From Tubulanus polymorphus (taxonomy: Eukaryota; Animalia; Nemertea), in assembly GCF_964204645.1 (NCBI RefSeq), contig NC_134025.1:25772299-25836298 (forward strand): a stretch of DNA of 64,000 nucleotides. The letters are read 5' to 3'. Below, in pieces: positions 2,524-22,382 of the stretch. Below the pieces are notes generated by a model. The model did no database searches, was not told the DNA's origin, and worked only from the letters and a program-made list of their open reading frames with translations. The translations under genes were made by a program, and so were the position numbers. The number at the start of each line of letters is the position of its first letter. Within the stretch, counting starts at the first letter, position 1.

Positions 2524-2981
2524 TGGTATTCAGACTAGATGTCCACATTTATATCCTACTGTCCATCTCAGAATTCAACGCATCAATTACACTAGGACAG
2601 TGTTTTCGATGAACTAGTTTATTTTTCAGCGCTTTATAACTATATTACTATAAGTATCATACAATCAATGATCTATCCAGGAAACTAACATTGAATGATT
2701 CGAGATGCTACATTATTCTTCTATAATGAAATAGACAACAACAATGATATGTGATCCACGATTTGTGCTAGTACACACGATTCCTCAATGAGGACCTAGT
2801 CCCTGGTTTAGATATCAGCGTTTATTAGTTGAATATAATTTCAAGCATCAGATTTTCCTTCATCTTACTGGCGACGGTTCTGACACGTACTTCGTTCCTA
2901 AATCTGCTCAGCGGTGTGGCGTACCACTATTGTACAACAAACAACGAATAAATGCACTATAATCCTCTATGAGTGAATTGT

Positions 2982-5900
2982 TCACCTCGCACGAATCAGC
3001 AAATTCCCTAACGAGACGGGAAGCCATTGTCCTCCACCATCATTCATGAACACAACGCGCTTATCAATACTAATTGTCACACTACCAAACTGATATACTG
3101 GTTTCGCCTTGTAGTATTTGTTGGGTATTGGATAAAATGCCAGATCATGTTCATGCGCCTGAAAGGAGACAAGATACCGGTATATACTTCAATCTCTATC
3201 AGTTTTACAATCTTAACTGAGGCCCAGATACAAATAAATAGACACCTAGGAAATGAATGCACATCAAAGTAAATAAATGATAATCAATATACCAGATAGG
3301 CAAAGGTAATAGTACCATTGCCTACTCTTAATACTAATAGGAAAATAAATCATTTTGGAAGTATTTTTGTGTACCTTTTGCTCAATAAGTTCTCTAAACG
3401 TCTCTGGAATAACTTCAACAACTGGGGTGGTCTGCATTGCGGGTTGCTGAAAACATAAATAGAATATTTAAACGATAACCATTCAAATGTATACAGTAAT
3501 GATTTGAAACAAAGCCCTTGAGAATAAGAAAATGTACCTCGGGTGCAGCCCTTGATTTTTCAGCATATTCGAAACCTAGTCTTCGTTCCTGATGAGTCAG
3601 GTACGCTATATTCTCTCTAGCACCTGGTTGATTCATTGATCCTACAGCCCTGTTCATTATCATAAGGCCCTTATTAAACATCTCTGTAAATTGATAAATA
3701 AATGCTAAGTATGAATGAGAATATCACCAACTCACTCAACGACAATTCATTTACCTTTGATATTTGGATGTGCAAGGTATTCTTCAGGTATCATAGATTT
3801 CCAGCCAAGATACCATTTTGTTACTTCGTCATAATTTGGATTATTAGTAAGCCATGTTGTTAAAACTTGCAACCACTTCTGGAAGAAGCATTTCTCCAAC
3901 ATTGGTATCATGTGCACGGCTGGAATAATCTCTTCCCATGACATTACCCAGTTCCAGGGGTCTTTGAAAATAAGAATAATGATAATACATATCAGCATGT
4001 AAGAAGAATATATACCAAATAACTTACAGGTAACGAAAAGGATTTACCGGGTAGTTCTACTTACCTAACATTTGCTGGTGTGGATTAATGATAAACTCCT
4101 GCATACACAGAGTTAATTTCGGAAGAATGTGTTTTAATACAAACACTTCAGTATGACATCTTCCAAACACCGGAATCCAAGGTTTCAGTATAAGTTTAGC
4201 AGAAGGATCTGACGGATGCCAGTTGGTGAGCGCGTTGCCGAGTTTGTGTCTGATTGGTCCGTATAACGGTTCAAGTCGATCACCTGAAAAATATTCATAC
4301 ATAATATACTTTTCTTTCGAACGTTATAGATGATAAACAGATGGTTTAATATATATGTTTTACGTACCCATAAGTGGAAGCCATGGGTGAAGCCAGGCAT
4401 GAATAGGCATTGTGTCGGTTAGTGGATTCCAGTTATCAACTTCTTCATTGAGTTTCGGAAATACTGATTGATCAAGAATGTTTTCCATGATCCACGTAGG
4501 TAGCAAAGGTATCCACTTCTCCAGAAAATCAATTAATGGGTCGCAAATTCTGACATTCCACTCGCTTTTAATAGAAAACACATCAGTTCTTACTTATCAA
4601 AAGAGTATGTATACCTCAGATATATTGAGCTATTGATCGCAACAGCGTCTTACCGAATACTTAGTCTGACAAAAGGCATCCATATTTCCCACATTAATCG
4701 GTCGTAGGGATCCATAGATTCAGCACTGTGTGAAAATGTCACACTAGCATCTTGTAAAACATCCTTCCATAACTGAAAACTTTCCATGCCACAGCTTGGA
4801 TTCACCAATGGCTGCCAGTCTTTCAGTTCCCGTTTCACCTAAATAATAGAAATATTGCTATCTGTAATCAACAATTTGTAAGATTTTGCTTGTAACTTTC
4901 ATTCTTAGAACATATATTTCTCACCATTGGTGTGACTAGAGCAGTAGCTAACATGGATAAATTATAAATCTTATATTCCTCATAATATTCGTTCTGCAGG
5001 TCCTTAAACAGTTCCGCACATTCAGACATTGTCATTGGATTTTCACAACCTGCTTTTGTTCTCGATTCACAGCTAATGATTGAAAATAAAACCTCCAAAA
5101 TTAGCAAAACATTTTCAACTGTGAAGATGTAACAAAACATGATTTCTCCTCGAGAAACTTACGCTTCGACGATGTTCAAAATTTTCTGCAATTTTTCGAT
5201 TTGTTGGGACTCATTATCCAGTACTTTTTCTAACTTTTCTTGTTCAAATTTCAGATTCACCGTCATATCTTTAGCATGTTTCAACCTGAAACCCATTCAA
5301 TACAAATATTTATGTAGATGGCATGAACTTAACGAATTAACTATCTATTCTTTCATACTGAACTTACTTCCTATCATTATCAATAATCTCTTCCTCTGAC
5401 ATGTCGACCAACATGTTCAGATTATGGCACAGTTCAGGCATATCGAACACCCTACGCTCATGCTGTAATGCGCTGTACAATTCTTCCTCATCTTCAGGTC
5501 GGTCGTGTCTTGAATGAATCGCGTGATAACCTTTAAAAACAATCAGCGAATTCAAAATGAATTATTATGAAATACAGTTGTTTTTTAGTTCCCAGGGAAT
5601 GAATCAATTTTAGACTCGCAGTTGTGTGGTACTGGATTCTGGAAGTAAAATAGAAATTAACATACCAGATAAAACCCTCTGTTCTTTCTTAGTCATATCT
5701 ATCACTTTCACCTTTGACAGTTCACTTTGTACTGGTCGCTTCTTCTTGTAAGTGCTGACGCCATCATTGGAAAGAAGTTCATCGGCAGTTTTATAGTTAT
5801 ACTTTGGCTTTGCTTTCTTCTTATCTCCCTAAGTTGAGAATTAACTTTGAAAATCAAGCCTCGAGATCATTAAAGGATTGGGATAATAATTTGAAAGTTT

Positions 5901-6992
5901 GAGCATAAATTTCAAAGTCAGCTCTGAATAGATTATTTTATGAAATACATACATCGCCTTTTTTCCACTGATGTAACTTCTGTTTAAACTCTTTTTCTTC
6001 TTCTTCTTCGGAATCTGCTTCGACAGGAAAATCGATGAGAGACCTTTCTGAACGTTCCGTGCCGTAGAATCCAACTGCCGCTTTACCCTTCCTTTTAACG
6101 GCTTCTACCGGAGTGGCGATACCCTGGTGACTCGGCCCGAGACCTTTACCCGATTCAAAACCCCACTAGAAAAGAAAATAATAGGTTCCTTGTATTCCCG
6201 TAGAAACAACTTAACATTAGTAATCAAATGATTTTCAGAAAAATTACCTTTGCGAGCAATTTCTGACCAATTCCTTTTGTGTGCTTTTCCCATTGCCCAA
6301 ACTCCCTAAAATGTAAATAAATTCATTTACCGTAATCGAAGGCCCTTCAAAGAGATTGCATAAAATAACTAAGAAGGTAATCAGAATGAAGTGGTCATTA
6401 GCAAATGCATAGATCAAAAGAAAAGATTTCCTACTTATCAGCTTTGCCTTGTTGGAATGCTGATCTTCTGACAGGTTTCTGTTTAGCGCCACCAAATGAA
6501 GCTTTCTCTTCATCGCTAGAATCCTAAAAACACAAATTCAAACTATCAGATAAAAACCTTGAAAAGATGGATTAGAACTCGAGGATAATTCTAAAGCTAT
6601 GTCATTAGAAAAGAGATCATGATGATGTTTTCTTACGCTTTTAGGTTTGTCTTCTTTTTCATCTTCGTCCTCTTCTTTCGGTTGATCTTTAAAACCACCG
6701 CTGATGAAGCTTAACGGCGCTGTGAAGTCTTTACCGCCACGTTTCTTGCCTCCGAATCCGACTCGGTCATCATCGCTGTCTTCATCAGCCCAAATTCCTG
6801 ACATAAAGAGACAAGTTAAAATTATGATTCTCGGATTGTTATAGACCTAATTACATCTATTTATGAGAAAAATGAGTATATACCGTAAGTGGCTTGATGT
6901 TTAGTCTGACGAAATTGTCTTCTGTTTATGTTGAATTCATTGTCCAGATCGTTTTGAGTAATTTCGAACCTTTCGACTTCAGGGGATGACAT
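2982..6992 (-). CDS. TFIP11: Tuftelin-interacting protein 11 (Ntr1/Spp382; G-patch spliceosome disassembly factor), multi-exon
   Basis: Starts [20 protein letters not shown]; [11 protein letters not shown]; G-patch [25 protein letters not shown]; GCFC region [51 protein letters not shown]; stop at 2982-2984. Confidence 0.96.
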
Positions 6993-7653
6993 AATTCTTC
7001 AACAGTTCACATCATTTTCAAAATGAAAAAAAAGAATGACCATTGTTGAAGGGAATAATGACTAATTTTGACAGGTTTAGAAGGAGAAAGGGTCACACCA
7101 CGTTGTGTAGGCGGTCTTCAATTGTATCAATTGAGTACTACTGGGCCCTCTCCACCTAAGTCTAAAAAAATTAGCTTTTAAATAAGTTCGTTACAAGACG
7201 TGAGACGTTTTAGACATGAGAGTTAATTATTTATGTTCGAAGATGTGAATTTTTAAGCTACATTATTAGACAGAATTGATAGGTTTTGCCAGAGGCAGTT
7301 TTTGATGAATCCTTTTCCTGAAAGTAAAACAAAATTAAGCTATACCTAATTTCTGATATTCTACGAAAGCACGGGTTTATATGATCATTATATCATAATT
7401 TGAAACAGGTTAAACTGCAGCTATGCAGCATGTCCCGTGAGAGGACCTGGGGCCTGTGACGGGACATCCCTGTCCCGTCACAGGTCCCGATGGAAAATGA
7501 AAACTTTGCATTTCATAGACGAAATGTCGAAAGAAACTGCACTCGATCGGTTACTATATACACTCAAAATAATGTTAAGAACATGTTAATAATCGAAATT
7601 TGTTCGTAATTTTATTATTTCAGATCAATGATATCATCAAATCGAAACATTAA

Positions 7654-9279
7654 ACACTGTCCCGTGAGAGGACCCGATTTTAAATACTATCCCGTGAGAA
7701 GACCCGATTTTAGATACCGTCCCGTGAGAGGACCCGGTTCAACATACTGTACCGTGAGATGACCTGATTTTAAATACCGTCTCGTGAGAGGACCCGATTC
7801 AACACACTGTCCCGTGAGAGGACCCGAATCAACTTACTGTCCCGTGAGAGGACCCGGTTCAACACACTGTCCCGTGAGAGGACCCGGTTCAACACACTGT
7901 CCCGTGAGAGGACCCGATTCAACACACTGTCCCCTGAGAGGACCCGATTTTAAATACTGTCCCGTGAGAGGACTCGATTCAACACACTGTCCCGTGAGAG
8001 GACCCGATTTTAATAACTGTCCCGTGAGAGTTAATAACTGTCCCGTGAGAGGACTCGATTCAACACACTGTCCCGTGAGAGGACCCGATTTTAAATACTG
8101 TCCCGTGAGAGGACCCGATTTTGAATACTGTCCCGTGAGAGGGCCCGGTTTCAAATGATGTCCCGTGAGAGGGCCCGATTCAACACACTGTCCCGTGAGA
8201 GGACCCGATTCAACTTGCTGTCCCGTGAGAGGGCCCTATTCAACACACTGTCCCGTGAGAGGACCCGAATCAACACACTGTCCCGTGAGAGGACCCGATT
8301 TTTAATACTATCCCGTGAGAAGACCCGATTTTAGATACTGTCCCGTTAAAGGACCCGATTCAACACACTGTCCCGTGAGAGGACCCGAATCAACTTACTG
8401 TCCCGTGAGAGGACCCGGTTCAACACACTGTCCCGTGAGAGGACCCGGTTCAACACACTGTCCCGTGAGAGGACCCGATTTTAAATACTGTACCGTGAGA
8501 GGACCCGATTCAACACACTGTCCCGTGAGAGGACCCAATTTTAAATACTGTCCCGTGAGAGGACCCGATTTTGAATACTGTCCCGTGAGAGGGCCCGGTT
8601 TCAAATGATGTCCCGTGAGAGGGCCCGATTCAACACACTGTCCCGTGAGAGGACCCGATTCAACTTGCTGTCCCGTGAGAGGGCCCTATTCAACACACTG
8701 TCCCGTGAGAGGACCCGATTTTAAATACTGTCCCGTGAGAGGACTCGATTCAACACACTGTCCCGTGAGAGGACCCGATTTTAATAACTGTCCCGTGAGA
8801 GTTAATAACTGTCCCGTGAGAGGACTCGATTCAACACACTGTCCCGTGAGAGGACCCGATTTTAAATACTGTCCCGTGAGAGGACCCGAATCAACTTGCT
8901 GTCCCGTGAGAGGGACCGATTTTGAATACTGTCCCGTGAGAGGGCCTGGTTTCAAATAATGTCCCGTGAGAGGACCCGATTTTAAATACTGTCCCGTGAG
9001 AGGACCCGATTCAACACACTGTCCCGTGAGAGGACCCGATTTTAAATACTGTCCCGTGAGAGGACCCGATTTTGAATACTGTCCCGTGAGAGGACCCACT
9101 TTTAAATACTGTCCCGTGAGAGGACCCGATTTTGAATACTGTCCCGTGAGAGGACCCACTTTTAAATACTGTCCCGTGAGTGGACCCGAATCAACTTACT
9201 GTCCCGTGAGAGGACCCGATTCAACACACTGTCTCGTGAGGACCCGATTTTAAATTCTGTCCCGTGAGGGGACCCGGTT
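7654..9279 (+). repeat. Left 30-bp minisatellite arm (~54 units): CTGTCCCGTGAGAGGACCCG + 10-bp variable segment
   Basis: Direct 30-bp periodicity; variable parts include ATTCAACACA, ATTTTAAATA, AATCAACTTA, GTTCAACACA, ATTTTGAATA; two 21-bp deleted units near 8020 and 8790. Confidence 0.97.
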
Positions 9280-10126
9280 ATTCACCGACCCAATTCAAGT
9301 TGGTGAGTGGACCCGATTCGATTTCAACACGATTTCTACAAAAACTAGTTCTTGGTTAAGTTTGACATTAAGCTTGAGTTAAATTACATAATCGCGGGAA
9401 ATTAACTTCGAACGTTTTTAACTACTCGGGATTGTGCTTCTACCTTTCATCGACTTGTTTAGTTTATGTGACTAGATAAATGTGTTTTGAATTGAACAGT
9501 TTTCACCCACTGACGTTGCTGGGTTATTAAGATACATATTTCACCGTTGATGGATTTGTGAATGGTACTGTTTACAAAGTTACGCCGAAAGAGAAGCCCG
9601 ATAAATGCCTATTAGATAGATATGCCGTTGTTAAATGCCATTGTATAGATATGCCATTGTTAATGAGCTGTAACTTGTGCTCGGAGACGGGATTTTACGC
9701 GGTTACTTTCATGAGTATGTTTACATGTGTACTAGTTTAACACTCATTTTTCCATTCATGCATCACTATTTATTAATCGACCATAACTAAAAACGACCTG
9801 AAACTTTGTATATAAACCCATTCTAAAAATTGGAAAATCAGTTTCTTTTGAGACGCCTTATGATCAATGATTCCTGGTTGCTGCCATTAAATCGATGCCG
9901 AAGACCTCTTCAAAATGTTCAAATAGGAAAATCAGTTTCTTACATCCAGTCATCATTGTACGCATATTGTTGAAATAATAATTTCTTGTAATTTTTATAT
10001 ATGGCAAAAATACATTATCATTATGAACATGGGACTCAACATTGACAAAGTGGACAATTTCATTAGGTCTACCAATCCTAGAACAGTGGATCCAGCCAAC
10101 TAACGGCGAAGGACTCAAGTAACTAA

Positions 10127-12210
10127 ATCGGGGCCGGGTAGAAACCTGTCCTCTCACGGGACAGTATTTAAAATCGGGTCTTCTCACGGGACAGTATTTA
10201 AAATCGGGTCCTCTCGCGGGACAGTATTTAAAATTGGGTTCCTTCACAGGACAGTATTCAAAATCGGGTCCTCTCACGGGACAGTGTGTTGAACCGGGTC
10301 CTCTCGCAGGACAGTACTTAAAATTGGGTTCCTTCACGAGATAGTATTAAAAATTGGGTTCCTTCACGGGACAGTATTTAAAATCGGGTCCTCTCACGGG
10401 ACAGTTTGTTGAACCGGGTCCTCTCACGGGACAGCATTTAAAATCGGGTCCTCTCACGGGACAGTATTTAAAATAGGGTCCTCTTACGGGACAGTGTGTT
10501 GAATCGGGCCCTCTCACGGGACAGTGTGTTGAATCGGGCCCTCTCACGGGACAGTGTGTTGAATCGGGTCCTCTCACGGGACAGCATTGAAAATAGGGTC
10601 CTCTCACGGGAGAGAATGTTGAACCAGGTCCTCTCACGGGACAGTATTTAAAATAGGGTCCTCTCACGGGACATTATTTAAAATAGGGTCCTCTCACGGG
10701 ACAGTGTGTTGAATCGGGTCCTCTCACGGGACAGTATTTAAAATCGGGTCCTCTCACGGGACATTATTTGAAACCGGGCCCTCTCACGGGACAGCAAGTT
10801 GATTCGGGTCCTCTCACGGGACAGTATTTAAAATCGGGTCCTCTGACGGGACAGTGTGTTGAACCGGGTCCTCTCACGGGACAGTAAGTTGATTCGGGTC
10901 CTCTCCACGGGACATTATTTAAAATCGGTTCCTCTCTCGGGACAGTGTGTTGAACCGGGTCCTCTCACGGGACAGTAAGTTGATTCGGGTCCTCTCACGG
11001 GACAGTATTCAAAATCGGGTCCTCTCACGGGACAGTATTTAAAATCGGGTCCTCTCACGGGACAGTTTGTTGAACCGGGTCCTCTCACGGGACAGCATTT
11101 AAAATCGGGTCCTCTCACGGGACAGTATTTAAAATAGGGTCCTCTCACGGGACAGTGTGTTGAATCGGGCCCTCTCACGGGACAGTGTGTTGAATCGGGC
11201 CCTCTCACGGGACAGTGTGTTGAATCGGGTCCTCTCACGGGACAGTATTTAAAATAGGGTCCTCTCACGGGAGAGAATGTTGAACCAGGTCCTCTCACGG
11301 GACAGTATTTAAAATAGGGTCCTCTCACGGGACATTATTTAAAATCGGGTCCTCTCACGGGACAGTGTGTTGAATCGGGTCCTCTCACGGGACAGTATTT
11401 AAAATCGGGTCCTCTCACGGGACATTATTTGAAACCGGGCCCTCTCACGGGACAGCAAGTTGATTCGGGTCCTCTCACGGGACAGTATTTAAAATCGGGT
11501 CCTCTCACGGGACAGTGTGTTGAACCGGGTCCTCTCACGGGACAGTAAGTTGATTCGGGTCCTCTCACGGGACATTATTTAAAATCGGTTCCTCTCTCGG
11601 GACAGTGTGTTGAACCGGGTCCTCTCACGGGACAGTAAGTTGATTCGGGTCCTCTCACGGGACAGTATTCAAAATCGGGTCCTCTCACGGGACAGTATTT
11701 AAAATCGGGTCCTCTCACGGGACAGTTTGTTGAACCGGGTCCTCTCACGGGACAGCATTTAAAATCGGGTCCTCTCACGGGACAGTATTTAAAATAGGGT
11801 CCTCTCACGGGACAGTGTGTTGAATCGGGCCCTCTCACGGGACAGTGTGTTGAATCGGGCCCTCTCACGGGACAGTGTGTTGAATCGGGTCCTCTCACGG
11901 GACAGTATTTAAAATAGGGTCCTCTCACGGGAGAGAATGTTGAACCAGGTCCTCTCACGGGACAGTATTTAAAATAGGGTCCTCTCACGGGACATTATTT
12001 AAAATCGGGTCCTCTCACGGGACAGTGTGTTGAATCGGGTCCTCTCACGGGACAGCATTTAAAAGTGGCTCCTCTCACGGGACATTATTTAAAATCGGGT
12101 CCTCTCACGGGACAGTGTGTTGAACCGGGTCCTCTCACGGGACAGCATTTAAAATCGGGTCCTCTCACGGGACAGTGTGTTGATTCGGGTCCTCTCACGG
12201 GACGGTAACT
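10127..12210 (-). repeat. Right 30-bp minisatellite arm (~69 units), inverted relative to the left arm, with a 660-bp higher-order repeat
   Basis: CGGGTCCTCTCACGGGACAG every 30 bp; diagnostic variant GGGAGAGAATGTTGAACCAGG recurs at ~10608, 11269, 11929; ORF-track entries 10915-11328 and 11575-11988 are identical. Confidence 0.97.
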
Positions 12211-12989
12211 TGAATCGCGGGTTCCGTTGTAAAATCCTGCGTGAAAAACGTGCATTCATATCCCCATATTGTCCCCCTGGCCCTGCAGTAAATAAGAATT
12301 TTTCGGTAGGCCTTTATGTATTTATAAATGAAATCAAAATGGAAAATGTAATAATTACAATCGATAGTTGAATTTATTTATTCATAACCGTTATAGACAG
12401 AATACATAAGAATATTGAGACTCGAAACCGCTAGCATTGGAATCGACGTTTCATGTAAGAATTCTACATTTGTCCCGTGAGAGGACCCATGTCCCGTCAC
12501 AGGCCCGGGTCCTCTCACGGGACGCTGCAGTTTAACTCATATGCATAATTTTTGGACGTATTTTAATTTTTTATACAGCGGAAGTAAATAATCGATGAGC
12601 AGCCACCTAGCGGGATGTTTGACTGACAAACTGGTGGCAGCACCGTACGGTAGTATAACAACTGACAACTCTGGTTCGAATCCTACTAGCAGGTTCCCGA
12701 TTTGTCGGGCCAGCGCCAAAACTAGCGACATATATAGATTCAACTGATGCGGTTCCACAGCGAGATCTGATGATGATATCCTTGATCCCGAACAAATAAC
12801 AAAGATATTTACAAAAATATACATTTATTTACGAATTAAAAGCAATCAAAGTAAACATTAAAAATGCAAATGGTCTATGTTCATTCCAAAAAATTTTAAA
12901 TCAATTTGACATGCTAGAATGAAAGACAAATTCTACAGGCGGTGGTTTGAAGACTCCTATTAACACTCTTCATCCTTTAGTAAAGAAGA

Positions 12990-15610
12990 CTATTTTTGTT
13001 TTTCTAGTCTGTCCCACCTCCATATCGTCGAGTCATCACATACAGCTATGATAATTTTACCATCGCGACTGAGGTGTGTTTGACGAATAGGGCTAAAACA
13101 TTTACTGTGTATCAATGTTGTACATCTGAAACCAAATATATATATATAGATACTAAATAACGCAGACAGCAGACTAATGCTGATCATCATTAAATCAATA
13201 TGTAACCGGTATGTTAGATTACCTCGAAAAAGTAGGATCCTCTACATCTAAATCCCAAACATAAAGTCGTCCAACTTGGTTCCCAACAACTAAAATCTGA
13301 AAAAATTCAGAAATCTTATATCGATTCATACAGAGGTCTATTAATAGAAAGCACAGATATTGATGATGGAAACTTCGTCAAACAGACCTTTTGAAAGAAA
13401 TCCATAGAAAATCTCATGAACCAGATCTCACACTCCTTGTATTCGAACTGATGTAGCACAGTAACAGACGGATCTGTTAGTTTCAATGAATCCTGAAACA
13501 TCTTCCCCGGTTTCCAACAAACTATTTTGTTTTCACAAGACTGGAAAGACATTCTAAAGCATGAGCGCATTTCAAACTTACTTTTGAACTTAATCATCTC
13601 TCGATAAATGAAATGTATCACTACCTTGGACAAAATCAATTTTCCAAACCATCGACAGCAATCGACATAATTTCTGTGAACATCTCTGGTTGAAAAGTCA
13701 GGGAAATGAACCGGTACGGTCTTGAATGATTTGCTAAAATGCAAGACAAATATATCAATATTCTTCGCAATATTTTTGATGTTGATTGATACATGTTGCA
13801 AAAAAAAATCTATAATTAACGAATAATGAGCTTACTCCTCTTTTTTTGGATCATAGGTATAAGAATGTTCAATGGCTTCCTGCACTTCTGGTTTATCAAG
13901 ACGCCATATCCTAAGTGAATGATCCATTCCACATGAAACAATACGTTCACCTTCAAGATCAAAGTCCTAAAAAGAAAATCAGCATAATTCCAGCTTAATT
14001 CAACACGATTGATACAATGTATATCAATTGATATACTGCACCGTCGGCAAATGTAGATTCACGAATTATACAAAGACTTACAGCACTGAGCACTTCAGCT
14101 CTATGTCCATCAACACCTCCTAAAACTGCTACACAAATACTGGTTTTGATATTCCATAAACGCAGGGCGTGATCTGTAAATAAAACATTGATTGACTAAA
14201 GAATATTCCTTTTTAATTTCCCAGCTCCAATCATTAGAAATTATTCATCTGATTACCTTTGCTGACAGATATGAGTAAGTTCGGGTCATTAGGGTGAATC
14301 TTTAGTTCATTGACAGCATTTCCATGTCCAACAAAATGCTGTAAAAAAAATTACGTGTCATGATAACTATTTTTTACTGAACATTTGACAGAACTTTAAA
14401 GATTTAAGATTACAAACCTTTATGCAACGCATATTTAATGGGCTAATAACCCGTATTGCACCCCGGGCACCAGCAATGATTAAAAGAGGTTGACCAGTAG
14501 TTTGGTCATATGTCCAAGCACAAGTGTAAAAACTTTCTTCTGGCTTTGTATGTTAAGGCAATTGTTATTCAGAAGCAGATTCAGCGCATTTTTAGAGGTT
14601 ATGATAAAGGATACATCAGGATCCACATAGGCTTGTAATAACTTCATTTTTCCTCCTTCCAAGAGTTCATAAATTGTTGTCTAAAAATATCATGAAATAA
14701 AATATGAGCAAACCACATGTTCAATTAACTAGGTACCCTGCTTTTCCAGAATTTGATTTCAAATCATACCCTGTTATTTCCAACAGTGGCGAAAATCAGA
14801 GGATCCCCAGGTTTGCTGTAATAGTTGATTTTCACACCAAATAATGGTGCACCATGATCTTCCTGAAAGACACAAAAAATACAAAATCATGCAAGTGAAA
14901 AATAGCAGATAGAATAAATATTTTCCTTTTGGAATTAATGATTGAATTAGGCAATACCTTCACATAGTTCGTGCATTTGTATTGAAGTTTTGGCTGTTTA
15001 TAAATCAATCCTCTGCCTCGCTTTCTAGATCTACCAGGTAACAATGTAGGAGTACCGCTGCGAGAACTAGTGTCATCTTGAGACAGATTGGACGTACTTT
15101 CAACGCTACCAGACTCTTCCTACAGATCATAAGTATAAGTAAAATTCTTTTGATTATGCCCTTCAACGTTGATACCTTGTTTCTCATCCAAAGCTCTTTT
15201 CTAGACACGACAAGGCGGGCGAATCTTTTTGTAATGAGGTATTTTAAAATAAAAAATACCTCATTAAACTTGTATTTTTATATTATCCAGGGAGACGAGG
15301 GTAGGTTTCTTCTTTTTAAATCCAAAAATTATTCAGTGGCATGTATAACTTATATGAGACGAGGGCGGGAGTTATTCAGAGTTTCTATCCATAGACGGTT
15401 TAAGTGGGCAGAACCAAGACATGTTCATTTGCTTATTTTCTTTATCTTAAACAACTTCAACTCGGGGCCTAAAAAGGATTCGGTCGGTTTGTGTAGATAA
15501 TTAGTGCAACTATCGGAATTTCCTCTCACCATTTCATCCCCTGAAATTTCTTGGTTTACAACATTCTCAATTTTTCCTTTTTTAACGGGATTGTTCTCAT
15601 CTGATTCCAT
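12990..15610 (-). CDS. EED: Polycomb protein EED/ESC (PRC2 WD40 subunit), multi-exon
   Basis: [118 protein letters not shown]. Confidence 0.97.
14544..14614 (-). other. U12-type (minor spliceosome) GT-AG intron in EED
   Basis: Minus-strand donor GTATCCTTTA; branch point GCCTTAAC 8 nt from the intron end; no polypyrimidine tract; splicing restores [13 protein letters not shown]. Confidence 0.85.
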
Positions 15611-21240: not shown

Positions 21241-22382
21241 AGTACTTGAATTATTTTTTTTCTTGGTCATGATTCTTTTGTAATTTTGTTATATCCACTG
21301 ACATATAATGTGTACCATGTCCGACGGAATGTATTCATAGCTGTTTGCTAATTATTAAAATTTGTCAAAAGTTTTAGAAAAAATTTAGAAAAAAAGAGTT
21401 TTCTAAACATTAGATTTAGACTCTAATTTCATGATGAATTCAATGGAACATTCATAAACTTTTTGTTTCATTCTTTAAAAAAAACTACATCTTCTGCATG
21501 TTTTATGTTCCTTAGAACTGTTTAGGCTAAGCAGTGTCTGTGCATTTGTTTGGTTTCTATAACCACAGAATATGGACATTTTTTCTTGGTTTTAAATCCA
21601 TTTTTAGTGAAAGAACTTGTAAAGAAACCCAAGTAAAGAAATATCCACGTGTTGGGTAATATTTAATTGAATCATAATCTTTTTGCAGCTCTAATCTTTC
21701 GTCCCATCCTTGCTGAGTATATACCCGTTATAGTTTTGACAATCCTTTTATAATTGCAAGGGTCAAAATTAAGGAATGTTTAATTTCAATAATCATTCAT
21801 TGTGTGTGCTTTACGATAGTTTAAATCCATGATATTGGTGGAAGGGTACGGGTATATGTTGTCTATATTGACTGGATTCTTCACTGAGGAGTTACATATG
21901 ATTTTTCACTCAACTTTTTCATTTCTTAAAAGAGAATTGTGTATAATATGTCTCATTTTCTGGACGATAATACACATGGTCACTTTGCTGTACTTTCTCC
22001 TCTGATGCATGTAATTTTGTGTATATTTAATGATTGATGTAAATTATGATGTCAGGAGTGTGTAAATGTTACACATGATTGGGCTGTCCAATTGCAGATG
22101 TTTTTTATATGAAATAAATTATTCACTGAATTGTACTTGTAAAATATTTTTAGCCTTGATTGATGTTGTTTTGGAGTAAGTAATGATTACCCATTAGAAT
22201 GAATTCAGCGAGTGGAAAGATCGCAAAAGATTTAAGGATGATTTTAAATGATACTGAAAATGAACGCTATACAACATAGCGAAATGATAGGCGGGACTCG
22301 AACCTCTAATCAAAACTGGGGGGCTACAGTTTTAATCCAACCCTACATAGTTTGCGCACGCGCAGATTGCTTCATGGTGATC

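What the first reader, a model, noticed from the sequence alone, without database searches (positions are those of the whole stretch)
7410..12535. 5.1-kb TTAA-flanked foldback element whose arms are inverted arrays of its own terminal motif
Seen: TTAA|ACTGCAGC...GCTGCAGT|TTAA ends, ~40-bp TIRs, short non-matching subterminal spacers, ~54 forward and ~69 reverse copies of a 30-bp unit, and an ~830-bp AT-rich centre with no recognisable ORF. The unit core GTCCCGTGAGAGGACC is the same motif that forms the TIR. Known: Drosophila FB and sea-urchin TU elements have this modular layout but 8-9-bp TSDs. TTAA duplication is typical of piggyBac (CC/YY ends), Kolobok (RR ends) and Sola3, and 5'-AC ends fit none of these well. 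A TA TSD with AACTGCAGC ends is an equally valid reading. Inference: a possibly undescribed foldback family mobilised in trans, with amplified transposase-binding sites.
Basis: partly seen in the sequence, partly recalled or inferred. Interest (0 to 1): 0.8.

Follow-up and report, generated by a model that had tools for sequence, protein, structure and literature searches.

The report
Foldback transposon with mismatched outer ends
This is a real 5.1-kb gene-less jumping element, one of roughly 10 to 16 copies and missing from another chromosome of the same species, whose true ends lie just outside the reported TTAA and are flanked by an 8-letter duplication, so it is likely an ordinary Mutator-type foldback transposon moved by an enzyme encoded elsewhere.

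Summary
The foldback layout is real: about 55 forward and 69 reverse copies of a 30-bp unit built on the terminal motif, around a non-coding centre. The ends and target duplication were misread. Reads from other copies leave the window at 7402 and 12543, not at the TTAA, so both TTAA words lie inside the element. The element (7402-12543, 5142 bp) is flanked by an 8-bp direct repeat, CATAATTT. A contig from a public run of the same species crosses the empty site with one copy of that 8-mer. A second copy shows a different 8-bp pair. Read depth suggests about 10-16 copies. The outermost 7 bp at the two ends are not complementary, and a perfect 13-bp inverted repeat follows. That layout is described for nematode Tm1 (Mutator, Phantom group); mosquito Muta elements also have subterminal repeat arrays and 8-9-bp duplications. 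No partner transposase could be reached, so the superfamily is inferred: Mutator about 0.65, with Zisupton, hAT and P as rivals. Verdict: a new, insertion-polymorphic member of a known kind; low to modest interest.

The parts
7394..7401 (.). Left copy of the 8-bp target site duplication, CATAATTT
   Evidence: Identical to 12544-12551 and not extendable; present once in the empty-site contig of run X1
7402..7408 (+). Left outer 7-bp terminal motif GAAACAG, not complementary to the right one (2 of 7 positions match)
   Evidence: Other copies depart from the window before 7402; comparison of ends
7409..7421 (+). Left 13-bp sub-terminal inverted repeat GTTAAACTGCAGC, which contains the TTAA taken for a duplication
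   Evidence: Perfect inverted match to 12524-12536
7422..7431 (+). 10-bp spacer found at the left end only; it varies among copies at 7422-7423
   Evidence: variant rows
7432..7487 (.). Left cluster of three copies of the 13-bp core, oriented in, out, in (at offsets 31, 52, 71 from the end)
   Evidence: other copies carry 32-35-bp deletions here (joints)
7488..7651 (.). Left unique subterminal segment, multi-copy in the genome
   Evidence: X5 depth about 132 against 8.4 in the flanks
7652..9276 (+). Left arm: about 55 copies of the 30-bp unit, with an arm-specific block duplication at a 771-bp lag
   Evidence: 184-bp exact repeat at that lag; 95.5% identity over 7929-8150
9290..10140 (.). Non-coding centre, GC 0.36
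10148..12207 (-). Right arm: about 69 copies of the same unit in reverse, with an arm-specific block repeat at a 660-bp lag
   Evidence: 490-bp exact repeat at that lag; 97.4% over 10960-11540; array-to-spacer junction seen in 9 X5 reads (table 5c)
12208..12471 (.). Right unique subterminal segment, multi-copy in the genome
   Evidence: X5 depth about 110 against 8.4 in the flanks
12472..12523 (.). Right cluster of three copies of the 13-bp core, oriented in, out, out (at offsets 21, 41, 60 from the end)
12524..12536 (-). Right 13-bp sub-terminal inverted repeat
   Evidence: one base of its TTAA (12533) reads A in 37 of 138 X5 reads
12537..12543 (-). Right outer 7-bp terminal motif, CATATGA when read from the end inwards
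   Evidence: Other copies depart behind 12543
12544..12551 (.). Right copy of the 8-bp target site duplication

Best explanation
The element at 7402-12543 is a multi-copy, insertion-polymorphic foldback DNA element with an 8-bp target duplication and no coding sequence, and it is likely a non-autonomous Mutator (Phantom/Tm1-like) transposon cut and pasted by a transposase encoded elsewhere. SHOWN: the ends, the 8-bp duplication, an empty allele, about 10-16 copies, 7-bp non-complementary outer ends followed by a perfect 13-bp inverted repeat, and arms that repeat the motif found at the ends. INFERRED: (1) a DDE transposase binds the 13-bp core GTCCCGTSASAGG in the terminal clusters and the arms, probably through a zinc finger; (2) it pairs the two ends through the sub-terminal repeat and cuts 7 bp outside it; (3) an 8-nt staggered insertion makes the duplication; (4) the arms act as extra loading sites, as in Muta1, where more repeats gave more excision; (5) each arm grew by its own slippage or unequal exchange, because the block repeats differ between arms (771 and 660 bp) and the arms are only about 84% alike.
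For: Ends from raw reads of run X5. Empty site: a 6400-bp contig of run X1 (depth 28.5, minus strand in both calls, taken to be one record) covers 12544-13300 at record 1979-2741 and 6700-7401 at record 2734-3441, sharing exactly 8 letters. Second copy: the right flank of an X2 contig begins AAATTGGT, and the X5 consensus of 20 left-end reads ends in the same 8-mer. Depth ratio 13 and 16 in X5, about 10-12 in X1. No transposase in the centre or in 150 of 153 ORFs of 68 aa or more elsewhere in the window. Literature, passages read: Tm1 has asymmetric 7-bp motifs outside the inverted repeat, variable tandem motif arrays, 8-10-bp duplications and a Phantom-like MULE partner (PMC3169594). [quoted passage not shown] Repeats raise Muta1 binding and excision (PMC5499845). 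Most foldback elements are thought to be Mutator (PMC4079207, section 17).
Against: No partner transposase was found or could be searched for: no genome is held. Tm1 duplications are mostly 9 bp, while both pairs seen here are 8 bp, which also fits hAT, P and Zisupton. In Tm1 both outer motifs begin with C; here the two ends begin with G and C. In Tm1 and Muta1 the repeats start next to the ends; here they start about 250 and 335 bp inside, behind spacers that do not match. No sequence similarity to any named family was tested, as Repbase and Dfam are not available here. The filled allele at this locus was seen in none of the four runs laid (X5 depth is 0.3 just past the right junction), so the arm lengths and the centre rest on the assembly alone.
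Confidence: 0.66

Rival explanations
1. Same element, but mobilised by a Zisupton or other KDZ transposase.
For: Zisupton makes 8-bp duplications (PMC12730594, passages). Short sub-terminal inverted repeats in Zisupton are recalled, not confirmed by any search.
Against: A search for 'Zisupton' with 'subterminal inverted' found 0 papers, and one search found no description of foldback arms in Zisupton. The 7-bp offset plus motif arrays is documented for Tm1.
Confidence: 0.1
2. Same element, but a non-autonomous hAT with amplified subterminal binding sites.
For: The 8-bp duplication is the usual hAT size (PMC5499845). Motif copies in mixed orientation near both ends resemble hAT subterminal repeats (recalled). 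One end begins CA.
Against: hAT ends are short terminal inverted repeats beginning CA or TA at both ends (recalled); here the outer 7 bp do not pair and one end begins GA, in the many copies sampled.
Confidence: 0.08
3. Same element, but a P-superfamily foldback like Galileo, the repeats being THAP-domain sites.
For: Galileo has long, internally repeated arms that hold THAP binding sites (PMC3688188, passages). The reverse strand of the core has a T-N3-GG pattern like THAP sites, and one end begins CAT (both recalled).
Against: Galileo keeps about 40 conserved terminal bases in true inverted repeats; here the terminal 7 bp differ between ends.
Confidence: 0.07
4. One reading: a TTAA- or TA-duplicating element (piggyBac, Kolobok, Sola3 or Tc1-like) with ends at 7414 and 12531.
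For: TTAA does stand on both sides of an inverted 8-mer.
Against: Other copies share the bases outside both TTAA words and diverge only at 7402 and 12543; the empty contig lacks both TTAA words and the outer motifs; 37 of 138 reads change the right TTAA.
Confidence: 0.01
5. The inverted arms at this locus are an assembly or library artefact (fold-back chimera) joined to a real repeat.
Against: The arms are not mirror copies: best alignment 84.8%, longest shared exact stretch 101 bp, 8 of 50 unit variants shared, different block repeats. The insertion sits cleanly between two copies of an 8-mer that is single in the empty allele. Nine X5 reads join a reverse-strand unit to the right spacer as in the window.
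Confidence: 0.03

Closest known systems
Tm1 of root-knot nematodes (Mutator, Phantom group; PMC3169594, passages read)
   Same: Asymmetric 7-bp motifs outside the inverted repeat; composite arms with unequal numbers of a tandem motif; 8-10-bp duplication; mostly non-autonomous copies; an empty site on record
   Different: Tm1 unit about 14 bp, the elements described in the passages about 1 kb, duplication mostly 9 bp, repeats next to the ends, partner transposase known. Here a 30-bp unit, arms of 1.6 and 2.1 kb set behind non-matching spacers, 5.1 kb in all, partner unknown; no sequence comparison made
Muta1 and Muta5 of Aedes aegypti (MULE, type-2 foldback; PMC5225508, PMC5499845, passages read)
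   Same: 8-9-bp duplication; subterminal tandem repeats that bind transposase and raise excision; non-autonomous derivatives with unequal repeat numbers and varied interiors; insertion near genes
   Different: Muta ends are symmetric, with 145-151-bp TIRs and 9 repeats of 12-15 bp; here the outer ends are asymmetric and there are about 55 and 69 units
Tetris of Drosophila virilis (PMC4079207, passages and section 17 read), and FB and sea-urchin TU (recalled)
   Same: Non-autonomous foldback with kilobase arms of tandem repeats; 8-10-bp duplication; assigned to Mutator from duplication size and structure alone
   Different: Tetris has 220-bp units and long matching flanking domains; here the flanking spacers do not match
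Galileo (P superfamily; PMC3688188, passages read)
   Same: Long internally repeated arms with extra transposase-binding sites
   Different: True terminal inverted repeats and a THAP transposase; outer ends here are not complementary

Membership tests
Foldback elements (structural class) | Long inverted arms made of tandem repeats around a central domain | tested here: met
   arms of 1.6 and 2.1 kb, 84% alike in inverted orientation
Class II cut-and-paste element, non-autonomous | Fixed ends shared by dispersed copies, target duplication, empty site, no transposase gene | tested here: met
Mutator/MULE | Target duplication of 8-11 bp (PMC6446971) | tested here: met
   8 bp at this locus (empty site) and in one further copy
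Mutator/MULE | MULE-type DDE transposase in the element or in a partner with the same ends | not testable with these tools
   None in this copy; no genome held to search for a partner
Phantom/Tm1-type Mutator | Short non-inverted outer ends with a sub-terminal inverted repeat | tested here: met
   7 bp with 2 matches, then 13 bp perfect; Tm1 description
Phantom/Tm1-type Mutator | FLYWCH plus MULE transposase | not testable with these tools
   No partner reachable
piggyBac / Kolobok / Sola3 | TTAA target duplication (PMC9587614, for Kolobok and piggyBac; Sola3 recalled) | tested here: not met
   Both TTAA words lie inside the element; the duplication is 8 bp
Tc1/mariner | TA target duplication (recalled) | tested here: not met
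Spy (PHIS) | Insertion between AAA and TTT with no duplication; ends 5'-GGANNNNG (PMC4122938, part 2 read) | tested here: not met
   8-bp duplication present; ends differ
hAT | 8-bp duplication | tested here: met
hAT | Short inverted repeats at the very ends, beginning CA or TA (recalled) | tested here: not met
   Outer 7 bp do not pair; left end begins GA
P / Galileo | True terminal inverted repeats; THAP transposase | tested here: not met
   Terminal bases differ; the transposase could not be tested
Zisupton / KDZ | 8-bp duplication; KDZ transposase | tested here: inconclusive
   Size fits; no transposase to test; end structure of Zisupton not found in the library

The most novel reading that the evidence does not exclude
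The partner transposase belongs to an undescribed lineage that ignores the terminal bases and cuts a fixed 7 bp outside an internal 13-bp repeat, like a ruler. The same 7-bp offset in nematode Tm1 would then reflect a conserved cutting geometry. The element keeps this geometry while carrying over 120 binding sites, with the first site shifted by 10 bp, about one helical turn, between its two ends.
Probability: 0.12. Interest if true: 0.55.

Novelty: new member of a known kind. Interest (0 to 1): 0.27.

Why it matters
Modestly. It adds a polymorphic foldback family in a host that earlier unchecked notes call a ribbon worm; none of the 15 papers listed of 33 mentions nemerteans. It gives a second clear case of the 7-bp asymmetric ends described for Tm1. 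It also shows a trap for annotation: a TTAA inside a sub-terminal repeat mimics a piggyBac or Kolobok duplication. The insertion lies 598 bp upstream of the TFIP11 start codon and about 440 bp past the EED stop, stretching a gap of about 1 kb to about 6.2 kb, so it is a natural allele for testing effects on two housekeeping genes. If the partner is found, an element with over 120 predicted binding sites would test how far extra repeats pay off.

Tried and rejected
Whole genome: none held, so no genome-wide copy search or partner search. Metagenome scan with the terminal pattern: 55 hits, 0 of 55 align to the element, each has a single motif match; all chance. Viral contigs with a two-unit pattern: 0 hits. 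Rfam on 6000-14000: 5 matches, all far below gathering scores. tRNA scan: 0. Pfam on six frames of the centre: 0 of 6. Pfam on 150 of 153 ORFs outside the arms: host genes only, no transposase; 3 ORFs at the far right end of the window were not scanned. Long ORFs in the arms are a by-product of a 30-bp unit without stops. A Spy-like reading (no duplication, AAA/TTT target) was considered and rejected. Four motif strings searched in papers: 6 papers, 4 listed, none on transposons by title or abstract start. Earlier findings by sequence for the left end, right end and centre: 0 each. ESM Atlas on the SAM domain of the Shank-like gene gave no usable host taxon; the EED search confirmed the gene at about 50% identity but not the host. 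The Phantom paper (Marquez and Pritham 2010) is not held and is known only through citing papers. A 12-letter loose end seen at unrelated places in X2 and X3 looks like a library adapter and was ignored. A preference for A at position 2 of the target appears in the few right flanks shown but not in one left flank; too few to call.
Full report
OBSERVATION. Tandem Repeats Finder gives two arrays of a 30-bp unit, 7652-9276 (54.8 copies) and 10148-12207 (68.6 copies, reverse complement). The 16-bp core is found 54 times forward and 66 times reverse at up to two mismatches, and not outside 7432-12523. The same core forms the 44-bp terminal inverted match (91%). The centre has no Pfam match in six frames and its GC (0.36) equals the window background (0.355). 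The modular layout is therefore as reported.

CONTEXT. The window is gene-dense animal DNA with short introns. TFIP11 (TIP_N, G-patch, GCFC domains) lies left and EED right, both on the minus strand. The element sits 598 bp upstream of the TFIP11 start codon; the EED stop ends at 12990. No transposase domain was found in 150 of the 153 ORFs of 68 aa or more outside the arms. Earlier unchecked notes call the host a ribbon worm; I did not verify this.

THE ENDS WERE MISREAD. No genome was held, so I used public runs of the same species label and laid four of five on each end. In the raw reads of X5, depth jumps from a flank mean of 8.4 to about 110 and 132 on the unique subterminal segments. Reads from other copies stay matched through both TTAA words and leave the window behind 12543 (71 reads, agreement 0.46, so mixed flanks) or 12545 (22 reads) of 548 laid, and before 7402 (53 reads, 0.46), 7401 (20) or 7399 (18) of 471 laid. 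The later exits are read as chance matches of flank bases. The tool left out 38 and 33 further loose-end rows. The element is thus 7402-12543 (5142 bp). It is flanked by CATAATTT on both sides, the longest direct repeat near the ends, not extendable either way.

EMPTY SITE. In run X1 a 6400-bp contig (depth 28.5, minus strand) covers 12544-13300 at record positions 1979-2741 and 6700-7401 at 2734-3441. Records are numbered per call; I take these for one contig because length, depth, strand and coordinates agree. The two pieces share exactly 8 record letters: the contig runs through the site with one copy of the 8-mer and no element. It differs from the window by two 6-bp insertions and a few substitutions, so it is another haplotype. 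A second copy gives a matching pair: an X2 contig continues from the right end with AAATTGGT, and the consensus of 20 X5 left-end reads ends in that 8-mer. The other flanks shown did not pair up, as expected when only some rows are printed.

COPY NUMBER. Depth ratios are 13 and 16 in X5 and about 10-12 in X1 contigs (279-336 against 28.5; the tool warns that contig depth is no copy number). These are rough and may include partial or related copies. Of X5 reads on the right end, 168 are 99% or more alike, 225 are 95-99% and 146 are 90-95%, so the family holds both young and older copies.

ANATOMY. From each end inwards: 7 bases that do not pair (GAAACAG and CATATGA, 2 of 7 matching); a perfect 13-bp inverted repeat containing the TTAA; a 10-bp spacer on the left only; three copies of the 13-bp core in mixed orientation; a unique spacer (about 165 and 265 bp, unrelated to each other); then the arm. 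In the unit, the first 18 positions are 84-100% conserved and the remainder alternates between two main spacer types. The arms align at 84.8% in inverted orientation. They share 8 of 50 unit variants and at most 101 identical bases in a row, while each arm has its own block repeat, 184 exact bases at a 771-bp lag on the left and 490 at a 660-bp lag on the right. The arms therefore grew separately, which argues against a fold-back artefact.

HOW IT LIKELY WORKS. A DDE transposase encoded elsewhere would bind the core motif, pair the ends through the 13-bp repeat, cut 7 bp outside it, and insert with an 8-base stagger. The arms would add loading sites. These steps are inferred. Their basis is Muta1, where repeats strengthen binding and raise excision (PMC5499845, passages), and Galileo, where repeats in the arms bind the transposase (PMC3688188, passages). 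The empty allele could be the state before insertion or a precise excision, which Muta1 performs about 90% of the time (PMC5225508, passages); both readings give an 8-bp duplication.

COMPARISON. Tm1 of root-knot nematodes has asymmetric 7-bp motifs outside the inverted repeat, unequal arrays of a short motif, 8-10-bp duplications and a Phantom-like MULE transposase; the authors note sub-terminal repeats in other Mutator-like elements (PMC3169594, passages). MULE duplications are 8-11 bp (PMC6446971, passages), and most foldbacks are thought to be Mutator (PMC4079207). So the element works like a Tm1/Muta-type foldback. Membership of Mutator is met on duplication size and end layout and untested on the transposase. 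TTAA families (PMC9587614, passages), TA families and Spy (PMC4122938, part 2 of 4) fail on the duplication. hAT and P fit the size but not the unpaired ends (their end rules are recalled). Zisupton fits the size (PMC12730594, passages) and stays open. PMC13359780 (passages) added nothing on asymmetric ends. No supplements were read; those of the Tm1 and Muta papers list end sequences that could bear on the comparison.

NOVELTY. The family itself was not found by the searches made: motif strings in papers, nemertean plus foldback terms, metagenome and viral contigs, and earlier findings. Repbase and Dfam could not be searched. The architecture is known. What differs is scale and spacing: a 30-bp unit, over 120 copies, and arms set behind non-matching spacers.

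VERDICT. Real element, ends corrected, new member of a known kind. Confidence that it is a non-autonomous cut-and-paste element with an 8-bp duplication is about 0.95; that its transposase is of the Mutator type, about 0.65. Interest 0.27.

Noticed in passing
Runs laid on window 7598-7643 and 12400: Several contigs carry part of a subterminal segment and then run on into non-array DNA (X1 behind 7635 and 7643 and before 12400, 255 letters or more each; X3 behind 7598, 162 letters). These may be family members with other interiors, and one could be the autonomous partner.
   Followed up: no
window 7450-7614: Other copies carry deletions of 32, 35 and 85 bp in the left subterminal region, two of them within or next to the motif cluster (joints).
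   Followed up: no
window 12602-12683: Between the element and the EED end lie a CTCF-like word (12602-12613, label recalled) and a perfect Pol III B-box-like word (12673-12683; one other such word in the window, near 22304). No tRNA or Rfam family is there. It could be a boundary or promoter element that the insertion moves 5 kb away from TFIP11; chance is not excluded.
   Followed up: partly
window 9602-9663 and 9827-9941: The centre holds a 29-bp tandem duplication and a 21-bp direct repeat at 9827-9847 and 9921-9941.
   Followed up: no
window 1-64000: Very compact gene-dense region with short introns: Snf7, TFIP11, EED, EMC1, a 2-oxoacid dehydrogenase E2 subunit, Ada2b-like, cryptochrome/photolyase, Vta1, a Shank-like gene with a 1208-codon open frame ending in a SAM domain, and NEPRO. 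The element is the only large repeat found in the window.
   Followed up: partly
window 8010-8051 and 8781-8822: A 21-bp shortened unit occurs twice in the left arm, 771 bp apart, marking the block duplication.
   Followed up: yes
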